Of a stretch of 64,000 nt of DNA, positions 13,307 through 59,165 are shown piece after piece; position 1 is the stretch's first letter; every line of letters begins with the position of its first letter. The position numbers and the translations under genes are program-made. The stretch covers positions 58,280,001-58,344,000 of the forward strand of contig NC_059433.1 of the NCBI RefSeq assembly GCF_021028975.2, given 5' to 3'. The stretch comes from Sphaerodactylus townsendi. Its lineage: Eukaryota. Under the pieces are notes generated by a model. It had not been told where the DNA came from. It ran no database searches and saw only the letters and a list, made by a program, of their open reading frames with translations.

Positions 13307-14405
13307 AGGGGTCCGGGGCACTGTCCTTTAATGGATTGTCTCGTTCCTGCGGGGGCGGAGTCAGCAAGTGTGGTGTGGGGACAAAGCTTCTCGGAGGTGC
13401 CCACTTCATTGCGGTGTGCCTCAGGGGGCATTGTTGTCCCCATTGTTATTTAACATCTACATGCGACCCCTTGCTCAGTTGGTGCAGAGCTTTGGGCTGA
13501 TCTGCCATCAGTATGCTGATGACACTCAGCTCATTCTGTTGATGGAGGGGGGAGCCGTCGCCGCCCCTGCAGCTCTACAGCATTGTTTGGAGGTGGCCGC
13601 TGGTTGGTTACAACAGAGCAGGTTAAAACTGAATCCATCGAAGACAGAGATCCTTTGGCTTGGTCGGGGGGGGGGAGAGATTGGGAATTTTCAGCCGCCG
13701 GTGTGGGAGGGGGTCACATTGGCGCCGACCTCCTCCGTCCGCAGCCTGGGGGTCCACCTGGATTCATCTCTTTCAATGAAGCCCCAGGTGGCCCATATAA
13801 CCCGGGTTGTGTTTTTCCACCTTCGACAGGCCCGTCGGTTGGCTCCCTTCCTCTCCAATGCTGATCTAGCCACTGTGATCCATGCAACGGTCACCTCCAG
13901 GTTAGACTATTGTAACTCGCTCTACGCGGGCCTTCCCTTGCGTCTGATCCGGAAACTGAAACTGGTCCAACATGCGGCGGCTCGTCTGCTCACAGGGGGC
14001 GCCTTTCGAGAACATATTTCCCCTGTGTTGCGCCACCTGCATTGGTTACCGGTTGAATTCCGAATCATCTTCAAGGTGTGGGTATTGACCTTTAAGGCCT
14101 TACGCGACCTGGGACCCTCGTACCTTCAGGACCGCATTACCCCATATGTCCCAGCTCAACCTCTACGTTCAGCAGAGGCCAATCTACTGGAGATCCCTGG
14201 CCCCTCAATGACGCGGCTGGCCTCCACTCGGGCAAGGGCCTTTACGGCTCTGGCGCAGGCCTGGTGGAACACTCTACCACCAGCTGTTCGGGCCCTGTGG
14301 GACCTTGGAGAGTTCCGCAGGGCCTGCAAAACCAAGTTGTTCCACCGGGCCTTTGGAGAGGCCAGCCACTGATGGTGCCTCTGCCCCCCCCCCCTTGCTT
14401 ATAGG
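13307..14405 (+). mobile_element. 5'-truncated L2-clade LINE with an uninterrupted 334-codon RT C-terminal frame (13368-14372)
   Basis: GVPQG, YADD, LNPSKTE, RLDYCNSL and LHWLPV motifs; possible AAAAGTA TSD (13300-13306, 14406-14412). Confidence 0.9.
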
Positions 14406-31475: not shown

Positions 31476-31707
31476 CCCCGTTTCCCCGAATATAAGACAT
31501 CCCCGGAAAATAAGACATAGTAGAGGTTTTGCTGAAGTGCGAAATATAAGGCATCCCCTGAAAGTAAGACGTAGCAAAGTTTTTGTTTGGAAGCATGCCC
31601 GATGAACAGAACACAGAAAAATAAGACATCCCCTGAAAATAAGACATAGCGCATCTTTGGGAGCAAAAATTAATATAAGACACTGTCTTATTTTCAGGGA
31701 AACACGG
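31476..31707. mobile_element. Tc1/mariner-superfamily (Tc2/pogo-like) MITE
   Basis: TA TSDs; TIR CC..GTTTCCCCGAA.ATAAGACA / TGTCTTATTTTCAGGGAAACACGG; internal repeats of the TIR motif. Confidence 0.85.
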
Positions 31708-32514
31708 TATAATCTAAAGAGTGAAAGTTGGTTAGTTATTTGCTAGCCAGCTATATAATATATACTTCTAATTTTTTCAGGGCAGGAAAAGTAATGCAAT
31801 AAACATGTTTTCAGTAAATCAGTAATACTGATCCTTTCAATAACCTATATCAGGGGCTACTTTTTTTTCAAGAGCCTTACAAGATATCAGTCACAAAATG
31901 GTGGCCAGGCAGGGGGAACTAGTCACAAAATGGTGACTTGTGCAAAAATCAGTGTGTCAGAGTAGTTCTGCAGAGCTCAGGTGGAAACCTTTCTTCTGCT
32001 CTTTTTAAAAAGCAAACCATGGCCAACCTTGTAACTAACTTTACCTTTGTTTTCCCTGGAAGAGACAAATAGTTTTGATGGAAGGTGAAAGAGTCAATAG
32101 CATGCTGCTTTGCTGTCAACAAGCAAACCATGGCATGTATGTAAGTTTGAAAGACGAGATGAAAAAGATGCTGGTAGCATCACTTTCCCATCCAGCACAA
32201 AGGTGAATGCATGAATGTGCCTCTCTTTCTTCTTCACACAACAGAGAAAAGAAACTGCTACAATAGCTTTAAAGAAAGCAATTGGAGCAGCAGTGGAGGA
32301 GGGGCATAGAACTACTTTTATTTACTGGGAGAATGACTCATTATTTGAGTGACCTTCTGCCTACTCTTAGTCTACAGCAAAACCTAGCCATTTGATTCTG
32401 TTGATGGTATAAATTGTACCAAAGTTCGGCAGCATTCCCTAAATAACCAAATCTTTTAATAGTTCAAATAAACAATTCACTCAAAAATTTCAAACGTAAT
32501 TATGAATAATTACT

Positions 32515-32600
32515 TGCATAAAATTCCTGTGTTCTAGTTTTGCCTCTCATAAGATATATATCTTATGAGAGGCAAAACTAGAACACAGGAATTTTATGCA
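32515..32600. repeat. Perfect 86-bp palindrome (43-bp arms, no spacer)
   Basis: TGCATAAAATTCC...AAGATAT|ATATCTT...GGAATTTTATGCA. Confidence 0.95.
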
Positions 32601-35600
32601 CGTAATGATTTCAGTACAGCCTTCTATAACAGTACAGTGTTCAAAAGTATATTACATTTATATTGGAAATTAGTAATTTTAACTGTGTTTCTTAACCTTG
32701 TTTTGCTTTAAAATATTGTCCTGTTTTGTATACCAATAAAGGCGTGTGTGTGTGGATACATTAGATTTATTAAGCAGAAGATATTTCGAGCTGATGAATT
32801 TCTAAATTTATCTAATGAAAATCTAAAAGCTGCCAGGAAGCAATTCTCAAAGTTCTCAAATTGATGAACTTATGAGTCTACATTTCAGTGTAAGAAATCA
32901 GATGTATTTCCACTTGTAGAAGTTTTGCTAGATGTAGTATTTGTAAAATGCAATTCAGAAGCTTTGGTACTCATTAAATATTTTTAGCTGCTTGGGAGCT
33001 GTTCATCTGTGAGTGAATTCCAGATATGGGGGATGCATTAAGTGATTCAACTAGACAGCCAGAACCCATCATTTAGATGTTGCTCCCAGCCAAATAGAAC
33101 CTGTTTGTCGATGAGAAGATGTTTAAAGGGCATCTAATTTGAAAAAAAAAAACCTGTTCTTTTAGATAGCTCTTTATGCTTCAAGATGAGAATGCTGGAT
33201 GTTGAATATGCAGTTCATACACAATATTAAAAATTATGAAGAGAAATTTACACTTTATCCAGAAACCTTCCACTGTAACAAGGTAATTAATAAGAAAATG
33301 TTCTGCACAGTATTCTATGGCTAGCCAGTTGAATGCTTAGTGCATATCTGCATGCTTGCAGCTCAGAATAAGGATTAGATGTATTCACACAAAGTATCTG
33401 GTCTCCAGAGTCCATTTTCATAAGAAAAAGGGTCCTGTCAAATTGCCAGAGCTGACTTATCACAGAAAACCATTCATTAACATTTCATAAGGTATAGCAT
33501 GGTGAAGTGCAATTCAAAATACAAAAAGAAGTAATCGCTAGTGAGGTATTAAAGTAAGGATCTTAATATCACTCACTGCAGAGACAGATACAATCACATT
33601 TTCCCACTGTATTTTGTACTGATTAAAATATAGTATCTAACAAAATACATTATCATGTGCAATTAAGTGTATATGGACTTCCTGCATTATAAAATAAGTA
33701 AAGGTGACCTCATTAATTCCTTTAGTGTATTCCGACAAGGTCATTTGGGAGTCTAGTATGATCTGTACAACTGGTTTCCCAGTTAACATCACTTCTGCAA
33801 CAAACGTCTTGTTATGTAGTATTCAGCAACACTGGAAGTTTACAACCTAAGTTGATAGCACCTAAGCTGCATTGTGTCAAATATGAAATATCCTGCTTGC
33901 CTAGATGTCTTGTAGATTGAGGCAATAGTTGAAATTTGACAGTAAATTTTGTGTTGCAGCCAAATTTCATCCAAAGCCATTTTTGCCACAAGCAGTAAGC
34001 AGACTAACATTGCCTTAATGGCCGTTTTATTCTCAAATATGCCTTTTCCGTTTTTAATAGGGAATTTGTGACATACACTATCAATTAAAATTATATTACA
34101 TTAGTAACATATTCTTAATATGATGTATTATCACAGCATCCAAACCGTTCAGATGCACCCCCTGGTACTAGATACTGTCTCTGGAGCCTATATTGTTTGT
34201 ATTCTTTTAACCTGAACTCTGATGCTTGCCTATTTTAAGCTGTTTCAAAATTAATTTGGTAAGATAACCACATATTAGACCACACCATTCAAACGATCAT
34301 TTCCTTCACTATCCAAACGGTATGAAAAAATGACATCTTGAAGAAAACAAATAGTAGAAAGTTAAAAAAAGAGAATACACTGGATATACAAGCTCTAGTT
34401 AACTTTAATACACATACAAGTTTTTATTTAAAACTAAAAAGCAAACATCAGAAGTAATTATGCTTCAATTTATTTGCTGCTATGCAAGCTAAGATATTGT
34501 AAAAAGATAGGTTTCTGACACCTTTCCAACAGCAGAAATGACTTAGTCTTTGTTTTCCCTGGCAGAATCATGCAGTTCCCAAAAGGGGTCTGTAGTGAGG
34601 AAAAAAATCAGGCAACATTAAGCCCCTCCCCTCCATCAGCAAAATTTCAGTAAAAAAAACCCACCACCTTCAATAACGTTTGAAACAGCGAACAAATATA
34701 TGGTAATGGCAGTTCTGTAGCATTTAACATTTTTCTGGGATTGTGAAATACTTTGTTCTGCCACATTTAACAAGAGGTTTGAGGCACCACATCCTTAACA
34801 GTACATTTCAAAATGAACAAATTAATTCCACTGCATTCTTTAACAATGACTGAGGTTGAAGATTTGATCAGTCATCTTTCATCAAAAAAATACCCTGCGA
34901 TCAACATATTCTACAGAGGTTTTCAAAGCTAATGTTGGTTGAGCAGCCTGTCATATGCAGCCTCTCTAATGGTGTAACTATCAATAGCCATCTCCTGACT
35001 GAGAGAAACCTAATGTCCCAAACCCTAATGACGAATGTAAAAAAAAAAAAATACTTCCAGCACATGGTTGGATATTATGGCTGTCCTATGTAGCAATTAT
35101 CTATCTTTTAAACTTGAGGTGTTAGCAAATGAGATTTTTGTCAGGGTTTGCTAGGTTTACAGCTAAGTACTCTATGACAGACTAATGGTTGATGCCCCAA
35201 TCTTTTTAACAAGAACATCTTAATTCATAAAATCATAGAAACACAACAGACAAAAATATGCTACTTTAGAAAATACTTTATAATTCTACCCTTAACTACA
35301 GATTAGAAGAACTGAGTTCTCTATTCTATCATCACACTGCAAAACAAAAACTCTACCATTTTTTTGTGGTATAACAGGTGAACTGCCAGTCAATCAGATT
35401 TGGGGCTATTTCCTTTACAACTTCATCAATCAACTGAACTGGAATATTTCCCCCCTCATGAGTGCAGAAGCAAAATAAAATTCAAAGTCCTACTTTAGGC
35501 TGCTGATAGGCAATACATTAGTCAGCTTATACAATGCACTCACAGTTGTGACTGCTTTTTGTAGTTGTAATGGTTTAACAAATATGATAAACAACTGTTG

Positions 35601-37329
35601 CCATCTTTGGATGATACTCTCCCAGGCACAAGTGGCGAACTAACTTGCATAAAAAGTAACTGAATGTATTTTATTTGGGTATCCTTTTTCAGCTCTGGAT
35701 CCTATACACAGAAGCAATATAATCACACTCAAGCTATTACAATGAAGTTACAATATGATGCTACACTTTTGGTTTTGGAAGATGAAAGTAACTAAGTAGA
35801 GTCTGTCCATTTTGGAGGAAAAACTTCATCTTTATGGTGGTGAGGCTCAAAAGGATGAACTGTCCTGTAAAGTTTCCGAAACGGAAATTTTGGGAACATT
35901 TCAGGACACTCCAGCAGCTTTTCTAAGACAGTGAAGCAAGATAAAGCCTGCAAAAAGCCAAACTAGTTCGTAATTCAGCAACTGCTGAATTAAACTCTCT
36001 TTGATGTAACAGAATATAATTCCTAAGATTTAAACAAGAACATGTTCTATTCTTACCATTTCATCTGGTGCCAAAACTTAACCTAACTGTTTCACTCAAA
36101 TTTATCTGTTTTTTAAAGGTCAGATTTAATATTAGGGTGCTTGTCAGTGCCTCAATGAACAGCAATGCCATGGTTTGCAAAGTTTAAGAATTGTACGGAA
36201 GACGCTTTTGTTCAGCAGAAGACTGAGATGTGCTTAAGATCAACTATCTGTTTTAGAATTAGTAACATAAACTTATTGAAGAGATCATCAGAGTATCATT
36301 CACCATGTGTATCATTTTACTAGGAATATATTGCAGGGTCCAAAGTTTGTTACTGTAAGTCCTGCCTGGGAGAGAAAGGGTAAGGTTTAAACTTTCTTTG
36401 CTGTAAAGCTGCTGAATACACAGAAGATTATTTCACAATAGATTATGGCTATAGGAAGCTGAGTGTTTCTTCCAAATATCATTTGTGTCTTCTACAGTGA
36501 TTCCAACAGAAAACAAATTATCAGAGCATCACATTTGCAATAAAAGTGAGATGAAGCATGGTGATGAAGACTAGTCTCCTTGGAATTCTTACAGATTTAT
36601 AGAAGTAGCAGTTTTTCTGGTTATCTGCTAGCTTTACTTTGTATTACCATGATTATGATTTTCAAGTATTGAACAAACACATGGTCATTTATCCCTTTTA
36701 CAACCCAATCCACAGAGAAAGGGAGTGCTCCAAAGAGGATCTCAGCAGTGCAGGATGCTTAAAGAGAGAAGAAATTTATTAGTGGAGCTGCAAGCAAATG
36801 GGATGTGCTTGCCTTTCAAGTGACATAAGTCACTGGAAATTAAAGGGGGTGTTCCCTGGCTGAAAGCCCTCAAGATGCTGACTAGTCAGCTCTGCACCTG
36901 GGAATGTCCTCACTGGCTCTAATGCAAGCCTCTGCGCCAGAAGAGTGCTGGTGCCTGGGTGCTGCAGTTTACTGGTGCTAGCATATGTGCCTTTGCACCA
37001 GCGTAAATGCCACTTATGCTAGTTTGAGGTGATATCTACACCAGTGCAGGCCCCTTTCTCTATAGATTGCACTGTCAAAGTACCACAGATATTCCCACTG
37101 AAATACTTTCAAAACAGTATAAAAATACCAAGTGGCTGTCATTACTGATCTTCAACATCAGTGGATGTTGATGAATTGTAAAGCCAATAGTGAGCTTCAT
37201 ATAATAGGGCAGGCTCATGGAAAGTTACACTGAGGCAATATTTACAATTTGTAATCATTTATTTGCAGACATATAAGGAAATATTCTTCAGAAGCACGAT
37301 GTGAATTCTTCTGAGAACAACCTGAAACT

Positions 37330-38121
37330 TCATATATATATAGGATGATATTGCTTGCAGCCAAGTTTCTTCCTACATGTTGGACAAGAGTTGGCATTCC
37401 TTAGAGCATCACGGAGACATTCGCTGCAGAAGACATGACCGCATTTTGTTGACACGATGAGTCGTCCACTCTGTACAATTTCCGAATAGATATCCATGCA
37501 AATTGGGCAGCTCACAGTACCGGAACGCCTTGAGCCTGTAACTCCAGCTTCCATCAATTCCAATTCTCTCGACAAAGTACTAGTCAGCACAACATCATTG
37601 TCTCTTGGTTCATCATCATCACTACTTAATACACAGCTGTCAGGAAGATGCTGCCTTAATTTTCGATTCTGCTGTTGCCGCACATGCTCTTCAACCACCA
37701 CCACAGAATCATTGTGTGTAAGGTCAACTACTACTGGTTCTGAAGTTTCACAAGTGAGATCTACTACTTCTTCACAAGCACTTTCTTCAAGGTCAATTGG
37801 CTCCATTTGTGAAGACACTTCTACAGCAGCCATTCGACTTTGCATGCGCGTTTGCCTAGAATTAACAGTTCCTCCGCAACGCTTTTTGGGGACTTTAGAC
37901 TTTCTCATGCTCTCACTGGAAATTATGGAGGCAGCTTCAGCAGTTACCAGAAGTTCACTACCGGTGGCAGGAGAGAAAGAGGCCACAGTGGAAGTGGATG
38001 GCGAGGAGAAAGAGATGGTGGCTGAGGAAGCAGACCCAGCAGACTTGATTTGCACGCTGTTAGCTAGACTTTTGTTCTTCCTGCGCTTAGCTCCAGTGCG
38101 TTTGGCATCAGTCGGACTCAT
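37330..38121 (-). CDS. RNF4: RNF4-like SUMO-targeted E3 ubiquitin ligase, single-exon CDS (probable retrogene), 263 aa
   Basis: Four SIMs (PIDLE, VVDLT, VVVDLT, VVVV), SCVLSSDDDE acidic patch, C3HC4 RING (CPIC...CGHVFCSEC...CPTC) and terminal YHPIYI; no introns, stops or frameshifts. Probably a paralogue rather than the multi-exon RNF4 orthologue. Confidence 0.92.
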   Translation of the reverse strand: MSPTDAKRTGAKRRKNKSLANSVQIKSAGSASSATISFSSPSTSTVASFSPATGSELLVTAEAASIISSESMRKSKVPKKRCGGTVNSRQTRMQSRMAAVEVSSQMEPIDLEESACEEVVDLTCETSEPVVVDLTHNDSVVVVEEHVRQQQNRKLRQHLPDSCVLSSDDDEPRDNDVVLTSTLSRELELMEAGVTGSRRSGTVSCPICMDIYSEIVQSGRLIVSTKCGHVFCSECLRDALRNANSCPTCRKKLGCKQYHPIYI

Positions 38122-38649
38122 GGTTCACAGACAGGCCAAGCTCCCAAATGAACATCAAAGGATACGCTAAGAGCAAGAGCAAAATGTGAGAAACTCGGTC
38201 ATAAGGGCCTCTGTGCAGATTCATTCGCCCGAGTTGTACGTCACAAACACATAACTCCACCCAAACTTCCTGCTAATACGCACAAAGCCACCGAGCCGGA
38301 TAGCCCAGGGCTCACCTACCCACATAAAAGCACGTTCTTCAGGTCCTAGGTTGTTGTTTTTTAAAGGAGCAAAACTCTTCTTTTCTAGCTCTCTTTTTGA
38401 CTTTATCTCTTGCTTCTAAAGTAAGAGACCTGAAGTAAAGCAAGCCTGCCCTGGGACAATCGGAAACCAACGTGTCTCCATTTGGTATAATGGCAACCGG
38501 ACAGGAAGCCACCCAGGCAATTCCATCCACCTTCTTTACACAATGCACCAGAGCAGCCTCTATCCTAGTCCTGTTCCTGACCCACACCCATTACTCCACA
38601 CAATCCCTTACTAGCACCGCAGAGCCTCCTATAAACCAAGAACTACACT

Positions 38650-39197
38650 TACCTTCCACTCCTACCCTCTAGCAGCTTCCCACAGAAGTACGAAGAAAAT
38701 TTAACGTCAGTCCACCCTACCTTTAGTAGGCAGGACCGCGCATGCGCCTCTCCAGCACCCGGCGCTGTTTGAATCGCCTGTTATCGGCAGTCTCCAACTG
38801 GAGAACATACGGGTAACCTAAGGAGACTCTGGCGCATGCGCAAATATCTTTCTCTCCTTCACGTGACGTGAGGCGGAGACGGAAAGGGAAAGGTCGCCTG
38901 CGACGTCGTCAGTGGAGGAGGGGGGAAGAGCGGAAGGTCAGGGAGCCGCGGAGCGGAAGTGGGAGCCGGAGCGCGTCCGCCATTGTGGGAAAGCGGAGCC
39001 CGGAGCTGGGGAGGGGAGCCGTGCGGTGTCCAGCGGGTCGCATTCGGTGGCACCGGCCAGGCCAGGAGTGTCTGGGCTGCGGAGACAATCAAGCGGAGGC
39101 GGCGAAGGCGGCGGCGGGGACGGCGACCTGCGAAAGATAAGGCGGAGGAGGAGGCCCAAGCGGAGCTGGGTGAGGGGATCGCGGTTCCCCGTGAAGA
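38650..39197. promoter_or_regulatory. Bidirectional CpG-island promoter shared by YTHDF3 (+) and the RNF4-like gene (-)
   Basis: NRF1 palindromes GCGCATGCGC at 38738-38747 and 38832-38841; E-box/CRE TCACGTGACGTGA at 38859-38871; ETS/GABP CGGAAGTG at 38954; YY1-like CCGCCATTGT at 38977. Confidence 0.8.
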
Positions 39198-39221
39198 ATG
39201 TCAGCCACCAGCGTCGACCAG
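39198..39221 (+). CDS. YTHDF3: YTHDF3 exon 1 (MSATSVDQ)
   Basis: Matches the YTHDF3 N-terminus; CAG|GT donor. Confidence 0.93.
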
Positions 39222-40478
39222 GTATCGCCTGAGCCTTTCCCGCGCGGCGCCCCTTCGCCCCTCTCCTCCTCCTGCCACTCGGCCCCTGGACATAGCGGGG
39301 ATCCGTGCCCGCTACATCCGAGGCCGTGCGACTCCTCCCCGTTCCCAGGACCGCCCCCTCCGCGAGCCTGGAGGCCGCTCAGCCCCGGCCTGGGGCCTTC
39401 CCGCGGCGGCCGTGTTGCTGGCTTTCCCAAGCAGGGCCCTCTCCTGCAAACGGCCACGGCTTGGCTTCCTTTTTGTTATTGTTTTCCCTTCCCTGTTGCT
39501 CCCGCTTCGCCCTGTGCCGCATCCAGTCCTCGGATTCCATCTCTAATTTCTACCCCTAAACGGGGCCTTCGGCTGGAGATTTTCCTGTCTTAATCGTCGC
39601 CACTTTCCTTCTTTATTTCTGCTACGGTTCCCCGCTCTCCTTTGCAGCCATTTTTCGGCCTCTCCCTCTTCGGTAACATATTTTCAAACCGTTTTTTATT
39701 GCCCAAATTTGTATGCGTCTTGTTTTTCATGCCACTGAGTTATTATTTTCCTCCCCCCCCCCCCCATCCTTTGTCGGTCTTTAACTGCTGAAACGTTTGA
39801 AGTTTTAGGTTTGAAGTAATCGTGGTTCATACGGAAAAAATCATTTATAAAGAGCAACCCAAATCTGGTGTGAAAGAAAGTAAAATGTCATGCCAATGGG
39901 AGAGAGGATAACTTGTTTTAGAAAATTCTGAATTTTCAGCCTGTTAACTAATATTAAGAAAAACGATTTTGACATATTGTCCCTGTGTACTTCTTGAGAC
40001 TGTTATTTGGCATTGTAGAAGGCCTGGTAACTTTCTCATTTGGCTAAGTGGCAGGACTTGGAATATAGAGTACTGTTGCAACTGTGTTAAGCACTGTCTG
40101 TTTTTGCAAACTGCATGTTATGACTGTTGGGGTGTTTTTTTTTAGTTGGGCTTTTAGTCGTGAGAATATGTATTGTATTGTGAGGCATTCAGCTTATGTA
40201 TAAATACAAACAGTATTTTTTGTAATTATATCCCCTAAGACTTCACAAACATGAAACATGTGATTTATATTTCTGTGTGGTAAATGTATATCTAAGTGGC
40301 TTCTAACTTTTTTGGTAAGCAGCACTGTGAGCAACACTTGCTAACTTATTGTGGTTGAGATATATAACAAGCCATTTTACCATCATTTTGGTTTTATTTA
40401 GAATTATGGTTATAATGTGAATATATTTGATATATATCAAAACTTTTAATGCTTGGTTTTTCTATTTTTTATTACTAG

Positions 40479-40503
40479 AGACCTAAAGGACAAGGAAATA
40501 AAG
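40479..40503 (+). CDS. YTHDF3: YTHDF3 exon 2 (RPKGQGNK, 25-nt microexon)
   Basis: Poly-T tract + TAG acceptor, AAG|GTAAGT donor. Confidence 0.93.
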
Positions 40504-43500
40504 GTAAGTTGATTTTATTTTTCCTTTTTAGGTTCCCAGTAATGAAAAGAGTGAAAATCTGTGATTACTCTGAAATAGGGAGGTGTTTTTTTTTAAAATT
40601 GTTGCTATTGGAGACATTCTGCTGATAGCTTATATACTGTTAGTCGTTCATTTCATTAGACTACATCAGTGTAAATAGATTGTGAATCATCTGCCCACTG
40701 CTATAAACTGGAATTTCCCATCCATTTTAGTCTCTTATACCACTTTGATACTGCTGATCAAAGGAAATACGAGTAATCAAGGGATCATATGATACGACCC
40801 CTTTCTTTGCCCAGTGGAATGTGGTCAAGTATTTGCTGTGTGCCTTTCAAATTCAAACATGCTTTGATACATTGAGATAGATGTAAAAGTTAGTCTTTTT
40901 TGCATTTATTTAAGTAGTTTTCTAGCTTAGAATTCAGTAGTTCATTTTTTATTTCTAATCACCCTTTTTTCTTTATCTTACTTTGTTACTGTTGACTTCA
41001 ATTTTTTTTCTATTCAAGTCCCATCAGTATAGATTCTCTTCCAAAGTGCATACTGTATGTAGAAAAGGATGCCCCAGACAGAGAAGAGAGCTGTATCTAA
41101 AATTTGAAACTTGTATGGGTTGGATTTGTAGGATTAAGCCTTTATATATATGGTCAACAATCACACTGTCAGTGATACATGTTGTGGTCAGAGGATATGT
41201 CCCAGCACTCCCTTTTTGCAGTAGATGTCATTGCTGATGGCACCCACAGAGAGATCCAGAGTTGGATGTTGTTTAGCCAATTGATATGCCAAATATTTCT
41301 AAACAGTATTAATTTATATCAACAAAATGTAATTGTTAACAAATTAACTTACTGGGCTACAGTGAAAAAGATTTTGCAAATGTTAGTGATTTTTAAGTGT
41401 TAGAGAAGGTTACTTTAAATTTTCTAGCCTGTTCTGACTTTTTTTAATATTAATATCAGCCTACTGTTTACAGAAGTTGAAATCAACAGAAAGTAACAGC
41501 AGTTTTAAAAACTTTTAGAGAAGCCTGCAGTTACAGTAGGTGACCAGTGGGAGAAGCCATGTCACTACGTTGACTTTGCACTGCTAGGTGTAGGGGTTCA
41601 TAAGGAATATTTAGTCCTGTTCTTTGCTTACAAAAGACACAAAACAAAGCTACCACATTGGCATTCTTGTTCTAACAAGTACTTGACAGTTGTTAAAGGA
41701 TCTTTGTTGACAATGTCTGACCAATCATAACAGAGCTGAAATAAGATTACTGTTACACTATTTTGTTGCAATAACTTAAAATATATGCAGGGCTGATCCA
41801 AAGGGTAGGTGCCTTTTACCAGTTTGTCTTTCCTGCTGCAAAATCCCACATTGCCATTGGGGTCTTGAAGATCCCTTCTCTGCAGCTGCATAATTAGGCA
41901 CTGGGGCATTCTTGGTGGGCTGCATGCTCAGATAGGTACATTCCACTCAGCTGGTGATGATTTGGATCCATCCCATATAGTGTACCTTCAACTTGTTTGT
42001 GAAGGATAGAGAATGAGTATGTCTATGTTGAAAGTATTGTAGGAATAACTCTTCCATTGGCATGGTGGTCAAAGCCCTAAAATGAAAAGACGCGAAAACT
42101 GAAATGCTCAAGTGAAAGGGAGGGACTGATTGTAGCAAATCAAACTGTTTTCTATGGATTACTTGGCCAGTATGTGTGTGTAATGGTAAATTATTGGTAG
42201 CGAATGATGAAATATAGAATGAGCTTATCCTATTGTGATATAATTAGCTATAAGAGAAAGAGTTAAAATCTGTATCTGTAGAAGTGAATGTTGAAACCTT
42301 GTTAAATATTATCTAATCTTAGGCAGTTGTTGACAGATTATGAATCTAACTGGTACTCACTGAATCAATACACCCCAGTGGTTTCTTATTAGTATCATTC
42401 TTATAAAATGTTTGCTGTTATACACCAAAGCACTTTGCAGCATATTACAGTGAGGATATTTTAATAAGTGTGGCTTTCTAAAGAGTAACAATTTGCAGGA
42501 AAGACACAAAATTTACTTTCTGGGCTGCATTGCTTCTATTAAAGTTCTAATATCAGTAAGATAATATTGATTGTGTTTTTCTCTTGGCTGAAAATTTTAA
42601 CTACAAGCAAATATGTGGCTGTCATTTTTTCCAAGCAATACTTGAACTACAATCCTAAGAACACTTTCCTGGATGTAACCTCCCATTGACTGAAATTAGA
42701 CTTATTTACAAGGAGATCAGCTAAGGATTTCCTTCTTGGTCTCATTTCAAATACACATTTAACTAAATCAAAAGAGAAAAGACTCTACTGAGACTCCAGA
42801 GGTGGAGGGTTTTCAAGTACTTGGCAAGTAAAACAAATTAAAGTGTGTGTCCCCCCCCCCTTGTGCCTGCATCATTTTTTCAATTCAGAATGCACTGTAC
42901 TAATCAAGTTCGTTTTCAATTATTTGGCATATACATTGCTTCAAATGTGAGCATTTTTGAAAATGCTCTGGAAAAGTTGCACTGGAAGATTTAATATTTC
43001 TCTGAGTCATGTGACACTTCTAAATCTTCGCATGTAAGAATTTGTGGCTTTTGGTCTTCTTTGTCCATCTCCATCCCATATTCTTGAGAGCAGAAAACCT
43101 AACAGTAAGGAAGGGTATGAAAGTGACTTCAGGTGATGTTTATAATGATGAAAGCAAGATCATAGCTCTCTCCCCACCAAGTCAAAGCAAAGGCTATCAG
43201 AAGTAAGAGAATTTTCATGCCAAAACTACTGGGGAGAAATTTTTCTGAAATACACAGATTTTTTAAAGGAAATCTGCTTCCAGTGGCACCAAACACCAAC
43301 AAGCAGTTCTTCCTGTGAATTTGTATGTTTAAAGCTCACCTGCTCAAAGCTCTGTTCTGTCTTTGTATGGTTTCAGCTTTTTATAGGGACTGTCTAACCA
43401 TCTCTGTATTTTTCTCTTACTGTGGAAAGCAGGGGTTCTTGCCCAGGAAAGACCACTAAGAGTGTGGAACGTGGCTGAATTTATAAGCTTTTCGTTTGCT

Positions 43501-50127: not shown

Positions 50128-51711
50128 AATAATAGCTATCCACCAATGTCAGACCCATACATGCCTAGTTATTATGCACCATCCATTGGATTTCCATACT
50201 CTCTGGGTGAAGCAGCTTGGTCTACAGCAGGAGATCCTCCAATGCCATACTTGACAACTTATGGACAGATGAGCAATGGTGAACACCACTACATCCCTGA
50301 CGGTGTGTTTAGTCAACCTGGGGCTTTAGGAAATACCCCTCCATTCCTTGGTCAACACGGATTTAATTTTTTTCCTGGGAATGCAGATTTCTCTACATGG
50401 GGGACAAGTGGATCTCAGGGGCAATCAACCCAAAGCTCTGCTTATAGCAGCAGCTATGGCTACCCTCCTAGCTCTCTTGGCAGAGCTATAGCCGATGGAC
50501 AGGCTGGATTTGGCAATGATACCTTAAGCAAGGTGCCTGGTATTAGCAGCATTGAGCAAGGCATGACTGGACTGAAAATTGGTGGCGATATGACAGTTGC
50601 TGTAACAAAAACAGTGGGTTCAGCTCTGAGCAGTACAGGAATGACGAGCATTGCAGCCAACAGTGTGCCTGCAGTTAGCAGTTCAGCACCGAAACCAACC
50701 TCTTGGGCTGCCATCGCTAGGAAACCTGCTAAGCCTCAGCCAAAACTTAAGCCTAAAGGTAATGTGGGAATTGGGGGTCCTGCTGTCCCACCCCCCCCTA
50801 TAAAACACAACATGAATATTGGAACTTGGGATGACAAAGGGTCTGTAGTCAAAGCTCCCCCCACCCAACCAGTACTGCCTCCTCAGACTATAATTCAGCA
50901 GCCTCAGCCATTAATTCAGCCCCCACCAATGGTGCAAAGCCAACTGCCTCAGCAGCAGCCGCAGCCACAGCAGCAACAAGGACCTCAGCAGCAGGCCCAG
51001 CCGCATCAGCTGCAGCAACAGCAGCTGCAAAATCGCTGGGTGGCTCCTCGCAATAGGGGTGTGGGCTTCAATCAGAGCAATGGAGCTGGCAATGAAAACT
51101 ATGGTATAGGTGTTATACCAGTTAGCTCTTCACCTTCTGGTGTAGAAGTGCACCCAGTACTGGAGAAACTAAAGGCCATAAATAATTATAATCCCAAAGA
51201 CTTTGACTGGAACCTGAAGAATGGTCGTGTGTTTATAATCAAAAGCTATTCAGAGGACGATATACATCGTTCCATTAAGTATTCTATCTGGTGTAGTACT
51301 GAACATGGTAATAAGCGCTTGGATGCCGCGTACCGTTCGCTGAATGGAAAAGGCCCACTCTATTTACTTTTCAGCGTGAATGGCAGTGGACACTTCTGTG
51401 GAGTGGCTGAGATGAAGTCTGTGGTGGACTACAACGCATATGCTGGTGTCTGGTCTCAGGATAAATGGAAGGGGAAGTTTGATGTTAAATGGATCTTTGT
51501 TAAAGACGTTCCGAACAACCAGCTGCGGCACATTCGTTTGGAAAACAATGACAACAAACCGGTTACCAATTCGAGGGACACTCAAGAAGTACNNNNNNNN
51601 NNNNNNNNNNNNNNNNNNNNNNNNNNNNNNNNNNNNNNNNNNNNNNNNNNNNNNNNNNNNNNNNNNNNNNNNNNNNNNNNNNNNNNNNNNNNNNNNNNNN
51701 NNNNNNNNNNN
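50128..51711 (+). CDS. YTHDF3: YTHDF3 exon 4 (P/Q/G low-complexity region and YTH m6A-binding domain); the 3' end lies in the N run and is inferred
   Basis: CTGCAG acceptor; [25 protein letters not shown]...[10 protein letters not shown] aromatic-cage tryptophans. Sequence is visible to 51592; the end assumes ~40 further conserved codons. Confidence 0.95.
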
Positions 51712-51732
51712 NNNNNNNNNNNNNNNNNNNNN
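51593..51732. other. 140-nt N run (gap or mask)
   Basis: Ns in sequence. Confidence 1.
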
Positions 51733-58993: not shown

Positions 58994-59165
58994 NNNNNNN
59001 NNNNNNNNNNNNNNNNNNNNNNNNNNNNNNNNNNNNNNNNNNNNNNNNNNNNNNNNNNNNNNNNNNNNNNNNNNNNNNNNNNNNNNNNNNNNNNNNNNNN
59101 NNNNNNNNNNNNNNNNNNNNNNNNNNNNNNNNNNNNNNNNNNNNNNNNNNNNNNNNNNNNNNNNN
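58994..59165. other. 172-nt N run (gap or mask)
   Basis: Ns in sequence. Confidence 1.

What the first reader, a model, noticed from the sequence alone, without database searches (positions are those of the whole stretch)
38122..39221. Retrogene appears to have captured the YTHDF3 CpG-island promoter as a head-to-head pair
Seen: the two ATGs (38121 -, 39198 +) are ~1.08 kb apart around two NRF1 palindromes, an E-box/CRE, GABP and YY1 motifs. Known: these motifs are enriched at bidirectional promoters, retrogenes often gain expression from them, and human has a non-coding divergent transcript upstream of YTHDF3. Inference: ancestral divergent transcription was turned into a protein-coding unit, coupling expression of an m6A reader to a SUMO-targeted ligase.
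Basis: partly seen in the sequence, partly recalled or inferred. Interest (0 to 1): 0.75.

Follow-up and report, generated by a model that had tools for sequence, protein, structure and literature searches.

The report
Lizard RNF4 retrogene borrows YTHDF3 promoter
In this gecko the SUMO-targeted ubiquitin ligase gene RNF4 has no introns in its coding part and is spliced to a first exon inside the CpG island of the oppositely pointing YTHDF3 gene; it is likely a retrocopy that replaced the original gene early in lizard and snake evolution, a known kind of event that appears new for this gene.

Summary
Observation confirmed. The ATGs (38121 -, 39198 +) are 1076 nt apart; both NRF1 palindromes exceed chance (0 of 1000 shuffles). 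The gene sits beside TTPA in other geckos, belongs to a squamate-only clade with a new ~70-90 aa N-terminus, and no ordinary multi-exon-type RNF4 from a squamate appeared among 120+120 listed hits, so it likely replaced its parent (orphan retrogene). A second squamate copy is annotated inside MRPL21. No functional link to m6A was found. Closest precedent: amphioxus SYCP1. New member of a known kind.

The parts
37330..38121 (-). Intronless RNF4 coding sequence, 263 aa: four SIM-like motifs and C-terminal RING
   Evidence: no read joint inside the CDS
37909..38121 (-). Squamate-only N-terminal extension (71 codons; basic KRRKNK patch, PSTS motif); Met72 aligns near the ancestral start
   Evidence: profile hits only 3 representatives of 1.84 billion, all squamate RNF4
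38122..38166 (-). 5'UTR part of the coding exon; splice acceptor AG at 38168-38167
   Evidence: Paroedura model resumes at 38166
38167..38720 (-). 5'UTR intron, major form (554 nt, GT-AG on minus); minor form 38167-38652 (486 nt)
   Evidence: 27 reads in X5, 0 in X6/X7; minor form 10 in X5, 2 in X6, 0 in X7; none in X1 (kind not on record, contigs run through unspliced)
38721..38830 (-). Non-coding first exon inside the CpG island (extends to 38653 with the minor donor). Lower edge shown; upper end at least 38770, estimated 38800-38830
   Evidence: 50 letters on the short side of the joint; estimate from binned unstranded depth
38200..38290 (-). Probable second, proximal start region inside the intron: unspliced reads fade from 44 (38177) to 19 (38198) to 12 (38207) to near 0 beyond 38244; TGACGT 38243-38238 and CAGGAAGT 38272-38265 just upstream
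   Evidence: (X5 only; 0 reads in X6, X7); region also aligns to another gecko's contig product. Start site inferred
38738..38747 (.). NRF1-type palindrome, lies inside the minus-strand first exon
   Evidence: also present in the Paroedura model (translated AHA)
38832..38841 (.). NRF1-type palindrome near the estimated minus-strand start
38860..38869 (.). Overlapping E-box / CRE-like CACGTGACGT between the two estimated starts
38930..38984 (+). ETS/GABP-like GCGGAAG (38930, 38953) and YY1-like CCGCCATT (38977)
38700..39400 (.). Core of the shared CpG island (GC 0.67, CpG o/e 0.91)
38980..39221 (+). YTHDF3 exon 1 (5' end estimated 38980-39010; ATG 39198; donor after 39221, joined to exon 2 at 40479-40503)
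   Evidence: (17, 23, 2 joint reads); YTH domain downstream
37258..37263 (-). Proximal AATAAA; depth in X5 drops from about 90 to about 4 here (short 3'UTR form)
34400..37329 (-). Long 3'UTR, about 2.9 kb, with poly(A) signals at 36130-36125 and 34474-34404; end inferred from where depth fades
   Evidence: libraries unstranded, so strand of these reads is inferred

Best explanation
This is an expressed, intronless RNF4 gene, likely a retrocopy, whose first exon lies in the YTHDF3 CpG island and is spliced to the coding exon; it likely borrows that island's reverse-direction transcription for broad basal expression and likely replaced the original multi-exon RNF4 in the squamate ancestor. Steps: (1, inferred) an RNF4 mRNA was reverse-transcribed and inserted between TTPA and YTHDF3, about 0.6 kb from the island; (2, shown as end state) a splice acceptor at 38167 and donors at 38720/38652 join island-initiated minus-strand RNA to the ORF; (3, partly shown) a long-3'UTR form is present in all three runs at a similar ratio to YTHDF3, while one run adds a far more abundant short-3'UTR form from both the island exon and a probable second start in the intron, likely a germ-line programme as in mouse Rnf4; (4, inferred) broad expression let the parent decay; the protein keeps SIMs and RING and likely does the ordinary SUMO-targeted ubiquitin ligase job. 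The pairing with YTHDF3 is likely opportunistic, not a functional module.
For: Joints 38166-38721 (27 reads, 20 starts) and 38166-38653 (10 + 2 reads) with CT..AC ends; no joint in the CDS. Paroedura model aa 1-51 maps to 38837-38658 (E 1.7e-6 within the 1.3 kb tested) and aa 55-75 to 38166-38104. RNF4 and TTPA share contig length in Eublepharis, Paroedura, Heteronotia and Gekko kuhli, with adjacent accession numbers in Paroedura (077208418 / 420-422) and Heteronotia (060099688-690 / 691), not adjacent in Eublepharis; in Pelodiscus/other turtles, Chiroxiphia and Phocoena TTPA and RNF4 are on contigs of different size. Tree of 64 proteins: 22 type A + 17 type B squamate rows versus 25 non-squamate rows, 100/99 support, tuatara next to them. 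No squamate protein of the ordinary type among the 120 of 599 and 120 of 291 rows listed; the 7 unnamed rows there group with birds or mammals. 7 of the 8 listed CDS differences between reads and window are synonymous. Long-UTR/YTHDF3 depth 0.35, 0.37, 0.21; CDS/long-UTR 17.7, 1.2, 1.5. Mouse Rnf4 is multi-exon and essential (PMC11093604 passages) and has 3.0/1.6 kb forms, the short one abundant in round spermatids (PMC3637229 passage).
Against: No CAGE or stranded data: start sites are estimates. Reads come from a lineage differing at about 94 places in X5 and the tissues are unknown. Island-exon joints are nearly all from one run (37 of 39 reads); X7 has none. No genome was available, so loss of the parent rests on protein listings cut at 120 rows, which could hide a fast-evolving parent (most type B copies were themselves missed). 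Position next to YTHDF3 and absence of introns were not tested in non-gecko squamates. No poly(A) remnant or target-site duplication is visible at the 3' end, as expected for an old event but no support. Only 8 of the CDS differences were listed; 62 rows were not shown.
Confidence: 0.72

Rival explanations
1. One reading: the shared promoter exists to co-regulate YTHDF3 and RNF4 as a functional pair (m6A reading tied to SUMO-targeted ubiquitination).
For: Arrangement kept across gecko families; long-UTR form tracks YTHDF3 in three runs; head-to-head retrocopies are co-expressed with neighbours, r about 0.6 (PMC4772013 passage).
Against: CDS/YTHDF3 ratio varies about 20-fold between runs; the genes are unlinked in turtles, birds and mammals; a second copy took another housekeeping locus, MRPL21, which suggests any broad promoter would do; no paper found with RNF4, YTHDF3 and TTPA or lizard.
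Confidence: 0.08
2. It is an extra, mainly germ-line retrogene driven by its own proximal promoter; the parent still exists and the island exon is minor leaky divergent transcription.
For: About ninefold or more higher CDS depth in X5, 44 unspliced reads at 38177 next to CRE- and ETS-like sites, short 3'UTR; many lizard retrogenes are testis-expressed (PMC3136929 passage).
Against: Expressed in all three runs; X6 has 8 reads at 38165 and 0 at 38177, so no proximal form there; spliced island form is also high in X5; gecko annotations call it plain RNF4 and no other gecko RNF4 was listed; core identity to turtle RNF4 stays 72-80%.
Confidence: 0.1
3. The retroposition to YTHDF3 is gecko-specific; in other squamates the type A gene is the extended parent (with introns, elsewhere), and type B is a DNA-level or later duplicate.
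For: Synteny was shown only in geckos; the extension is shared by A and B, so it predates their split and could have arisen in an intron-bearing parent.
Against: Unnamed skink-, agamid- and viper-type contig products read as one ORF from pyrimidine-rich upstream codons through the whole CDS (P0008, P0016, P0196, P0197), as an intronless exon with a nearby acceptor would; type A lies on 203-259 Mb contigs in several snakes and iguanians, which fits the YTHDF3 linkage group by recalled karyotype homologies (not tested).
Confidence: 0.1

Closest known systems
Amphioxus SYCP1 (retrogene replacement; PMC5803294, abstract and section 13 read)
   Same: Single coding exon, parent lost, bidirectional promoter taken from a neighbouring gene (CHIC), new non-coding 5' exons with alternative forms
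   Different: Here a CpG island in a vertebrate, an essential broadly needed ligase rather than a meiosis gene, a new protein N-terminus, a probable second proximal start, and a sister copy in another host gene; parent loss is inferred here, not shown
Mammalian orphan retrogenes such as RNF113A, MARS2, TRMT12 (PMC4772013 and PMC3548309 passages)
   Same: Retrocopy standing in for a lost parent; 9 of 10 use CpG-island promoters; RNF113 also has a later second copy
   Different: Squamate lineage; N-terminal extension of 65-91 aa; no rescue experiment exists here
Head-to-head promoter-piggybacking retrocopies, e.g. HTR7P1/HEBP1 (PMC4772013 passage: 11 human, 12 mouse within 2 kb)
   Same: Divergent orientation within 2 kb of a protein-coding gene
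   Different: Old and conserved, apparently the only RNF4 in geckos; output only partly coupled
Mammalian RNF4/SNURF (PMC11093604, PMC3637229, PMC2923610 passages)
   Same: Four SIM-like motifs, RING with the same Cys/His spacing, C-terminal YHPIYI, long and short 3'UTR forms
   Different: Mammalian gene has coding introns and lies elsewhere; lacks the extension

Membership tests
RNF4 SUMO-targeted ubiquitin ligases | Tandem SIMs followed by a C-terminal C3HC4 RING | tested here: met
   PIDL, VVDLT, VVDLT, VVVVE and intact RING
RNF4 SUMO-targeted ubiquitin ligases | Phylogenetic placement within vertebrate RNF4 | tested here: met
RNF4 SUMO-targeted ubiquitin ligases | Poly-SUMO-dependent ligase activity | not testable with these tools
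   no assay
Retrogene | Coding introns of the parent absent | tested here: met
   One ORF, one tblastn piece, no read joint in the CDS; mouse gene has an exon 6; other outgroup exon structures recalled
Retrogene | New genomic position relative to the parent | tested here: met
   Beside TTPA/YTHDF3 here; RNF4 and TTPA on differently sized contigs in turtle, bird and porpoise records; indirect
Retrogene | Poly(A) remnant and target-site duplication | tested here: inconclusive
   None evident by eye past the poly(A) signals; decay expected at this age
Retrogene | Expressed and under purifying selection | tested here: met
   Reads in 3 of 3 RNA runs; 7 of 8 listed CDS differences synonymous; orthologues across squamates; no formal dN/dS
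Orphan retrogene | No functional parental gene in the same genome | tested here: inconclusive
   None among 120 of 599 and 120 of 291 listed hits; genome not available
Bidirectional CpG-island promoter | Divergent starts less than 1 kb apart in one CpG island | tested here: met
   Minus exon reaches at least 38770, YTHDF3 exon 1 covered at 39092: at most about 320 nt apart, estimated 150-210; exact starts not mapped
Bidirectional CpG-island promoter | Shared elements drive both directions | not testable with these tools
   needs reporter or deletion
Bidirectional CpG-island promoter | Co-expression of the two genes | tested here: inconclusive
   Long form ratio 0.21-0.37, total ratio 0.30-6.2, n = 3 runs

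The most novel reading that the evidence does not exclude
All lizards and snakes lost the ancestral RNF4 and run this essential SUMO-targeted ligase from retrocopies that each hijacked a housekeeping gene: one head-to-head with YTHDF3, a faster-evolving one inside MRPL21, both carrying a newly born N-terminal segment with a basic patch and a conserved PSTS motif that gives the enzyme a new interaction; the YTHDF3 copy re-evolved the long-somatic / short-germline mRNA pattern of mammalian Rnf4 from borrowed and new promoter parts.
Probability: 0.35. Interest if true: 0.62.

Novelty: new member of a known kind. Interest (0 to 1): 0.42.

Why it matters
It gives a likely case of an essential genome-maintenance gene being replaced by its retrocopy in a non-mammalian vertebrate group, with the promoter-capture anatomy (new 5' exon, intron, two donors) visible in reads. 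It allows a direct test of how a retrocopy rebuilds a parent's expression programme, and it flags an annotation error: RNF4-like proteins of several snakes and lizards are named MRPL21 isoforms. It does not reveal a new mechanism, nor a link between m6A reading and SUMO-targeted ubiquitination.

Tried and rejected
Whole-genome search for the parent: no genome held. No RNA holder was listed by the index; the three RNA runs came by species label and were laid directly. Paper searches with no hit: RNF4+YTHDF3+lizard, RNF4+TTPA+YTHDF3, RNF4+squamate, MRPL21+IGHMBP2+bidirectional promoter; RNF4+retrogene gave 11 listings, none on this by title or abstract start. Two supplements of PMC3136929 (2,275 characters) hold no RNF4 or Anolis ids; the supplementary retrocopy tables of PMC4772013 were not opened, and subscription papers and retrogene databases are outside the library. 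Earlier scan findings: none. Origin of the extension: no match to N-terminal additions of non-squamate RNF4 models (101 proteins searched; only the squamate B protein P0124 matched, next best E 0.04), no outside hit among 1.84 billion representatives, Atlas hit 0.77 only: a chimera with another known protein is not supported; parent 5'UTR versus insertion-site DNA stays open. A middle exon that I guessed from the sequence (about 38430-38317) and an acceptor at 38210 were not seen among the joints. TTPA search reached only one non-gecko squamate (Salvator, no contig), so synteny outside geckos was not tested. No structure or complex prediction was run; no binding is claimed.

Full report
What is there. 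The window is from a gecko: TTPA exon 1 is identical to a record named Sphaerodactylus townsendi, on a contig of the same length as the window's RNF4-like protein. Gene order is TTPA (-, exons 20916 to 9462), an intronless 263-aa ORF (38121-37330, -) and YTHDF3 (ATG 39198, +; YTH domain at 50146 onward). Two perfect NRF1-type palindromes (38738, 38832) are the only ones in the window and are reached by 0 of 1000 shuffles; the E-box, CRE-like, ETS-like and YY1-like matches are present but weaker singly (73, 8, 19 and 32 of 1000) (names recalled). The island core has GC 0.67 and CpG o/e 0.91 against 0.29 for the window.

Transcription. Three RNA runs with the same species label, from a lineage that differs at about 94 places in the covered part, and one contig set were laid on 32700-40600. 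The libraries are unstranded and the tissues unknown. Three joints were listed. One is YTHDF3 exon 1 to exon 2 (17, 23, 2 reads). Two have CT..AC ends, i.e. minus-strand introns: 38167-38720 (27 reads in X5, none in X6 or X7) and 38167-38652 (10 in X5, 2 in X6, none in X7; listed as 38168-38656 with one letter between, which a sequence difference explains). Donors read AAG/GTAGGG and AAG/GTAAGT. So a non-coding exon inside the island, reaching at least 38770, is spliced to the ORF exon. Binned depth puts its 5' end near 38800-38830 and the YTHDF3 5' end near 38980-39010 (rough estimates), which places the first NRF1 site inside the transcript and the E-box/CRE and ETS-like sites between the starts. 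No joint falls in the CDS. Independent support: the N-terminus of the Paroedura RefSeq model translates this leader, aligning to 38837-38658 and then from 38166.

Coupling. Mean depth over the CDS is 116.6, 12.7 and 4.4; over the long 3'UTR 6.6, 10.6 and 3.0; over YTHDF3 exon 1 18.8, 28.9 and 14.4. The long form keeps a similar ratio to YTHDF3 (0.35, 0.37, 0.21), as a shared promoter predicts, though three runs are no test. X5 adds a short form ending at the AATAAA at 37263-37258, about 18 times the long form, with no rise of YTHDF3. In X5 the spliced island form is itself high (37 joint reads), and about as many reads run unspliced into the intron and fade between 38177 and 38244, just below a TGACGT and a CAGGAAGT; X6 and X7 have none. 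I read this as a second, proximal start (inferred; intron retention would not stop there, an antisense RNA cannot be excluded). Mouse Rnf4 has 3.0 and 1.6 kb forms differing in 3'UTR, the short one abundant in round spermatids (PMC3637229 passage), so X5 may be testis; this is a guess.

Evolution. The 22 best hits are all squamate or group with squamates; 20 carry an N-terminal extension, and the other two are short models inside the same clade. The other 98 listed rows are one divergent Hemicordylus copy and 97 non-squamate or unnamed rows; the 7 unnamed ones group with birds or mammals. Searching with the Hemicordylus copy gave 17 further squamate-type proteins. Five are named MRPL21 isoforms (Elgaria, Pogona, Pantherophis, Liasis, Erythrolamprus), two more turned up in cluster look-ups (Thamnophis sirtalis, Crotalus tigris), and a Lerista model fuses the RNF4 N-terminal half to the ribosomal L21 domain. 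I infer that this type B copy lies within MRPL21; its DNA was not seen. No gecko appears among type B rows. The tree (64 rows, last 188 residues; the Lerista fusion and most bird, turtle and mammal rows left out) separates A (22; 99/96), B (17; 100/99) and non-squamates (25; 100/99), with tuatara nearest the squamates. Core identity to turtle RNF4 is 72-80% for A and 51-67% for B. The extension is shared by A and B; PSTS or ASTS is in 20 of 20 A and 8 of 17 B; its profile hits only three squamate RNF4 representatives among 1.84 billion. RNF4 and TTPA share a contig in four other geckos, with adjacent accession numbers in two, and do not in turtle, manakin and porpoise records. Since no ordinary squamate RNF4 was listed, and gecko annotations call this gene plain RNF4, the parent was probably lost. 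This rests on truncated listings, not on a genome search.

Mechanism, with status. Shown: intronless CDS, island-borne first exon, two donors, expression in 3 of 3 runs, short and long 3' ends, conservation in geckos. Inferred: retroposition, shared cis-elements, proximal start, parent loss, pan-squamate position, ligase activity. RNF4 is essential in mice (PMC11093604 passages), so a replacing copy would need broad expression, which a housekeeping CpG island supplies; 9 of 10 mammalian orphan retrogenes have CpG-island promoters (PMC4772013 passages). Human YTHDF3-AS1/DT is named in 40 papers and described as adjacent to YTHDF3 (PMC8872986 passage); that it reflects an ancestral divergent transcript was not tested.

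Comparison and verdict. Amphioxus SYCP1 combines the same features: retrogene replacement, a co-opted bidirectional promoter and new 5'UTR exons (PMC5803294, abstract and section 13). The event type is known; I found no paper on it for RNF4 in squamates (open-access library only). New member of a known kind, interest 0.42.

Noticed in passing
P0121, P0126, P0127, P0128, P0133, P0221, P0225, P0136: A second, faster-evolving squamate RNF4 is annotated as an MRPL21 isoform in seven species and fused to MRPL21 in a Lerista model; likely a copy inside MRPL21; none listed from geckos.
   Followed up: partly
window 37909-38121 (-): Squamate-only N-terminal extension begins MS..KR.G.KRRK, echoing the ancestral MSTTQRKRRGG start, whose own basic patch is eroded to KKRCGG; the nuclear signal may have moved. 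PSTS/ASTS kept in 20 of 20 type A proteins.
   Followed up: partly
P0222 (Anolis carolinensis), P0194 (Vipera latastei): Two gene models leave the ORF at the same point (RS/G before the RING), giving SIM-only, RING-less proteins; suggests a cryptic donor near window 37520. No such joint.
   Followed up: no
window 38837-38122 (-): The spliced leaders hold up to four upstream ATGs, two inside the NRF1 palindromes; the one nearest the main ATG opens a 15-codon out-of-frame ORF overlapping it. Possible translational control.
   Followed up: partly
window 36110-36395: Depth spike in all three RNA runs with read starts at 36124 and 36140 beside ATTAAA 36130-36125: probably an intermediate poly(A) site.
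   Followed up: no
window 32505-32610: 106-nt near-perfect hairpin (53-nt arms, 96%, no loop), probably a small transposon remnant.
   Followed up: no
window 31487-31650: Three 35-nt direct repeats, transposon-like.
   Followed up: no
window 13461-14372 (+): 303-aa ORF with a weak reverse-transcriptase match (below Pfam cut-off) in TTPA intron 1: LINE remnant.
   Followed up: no
window 51593-51732 and 58994-59165: Runs of N; the first interrupts the YTH-domain exon of YTHDF3.
   Followed up: no
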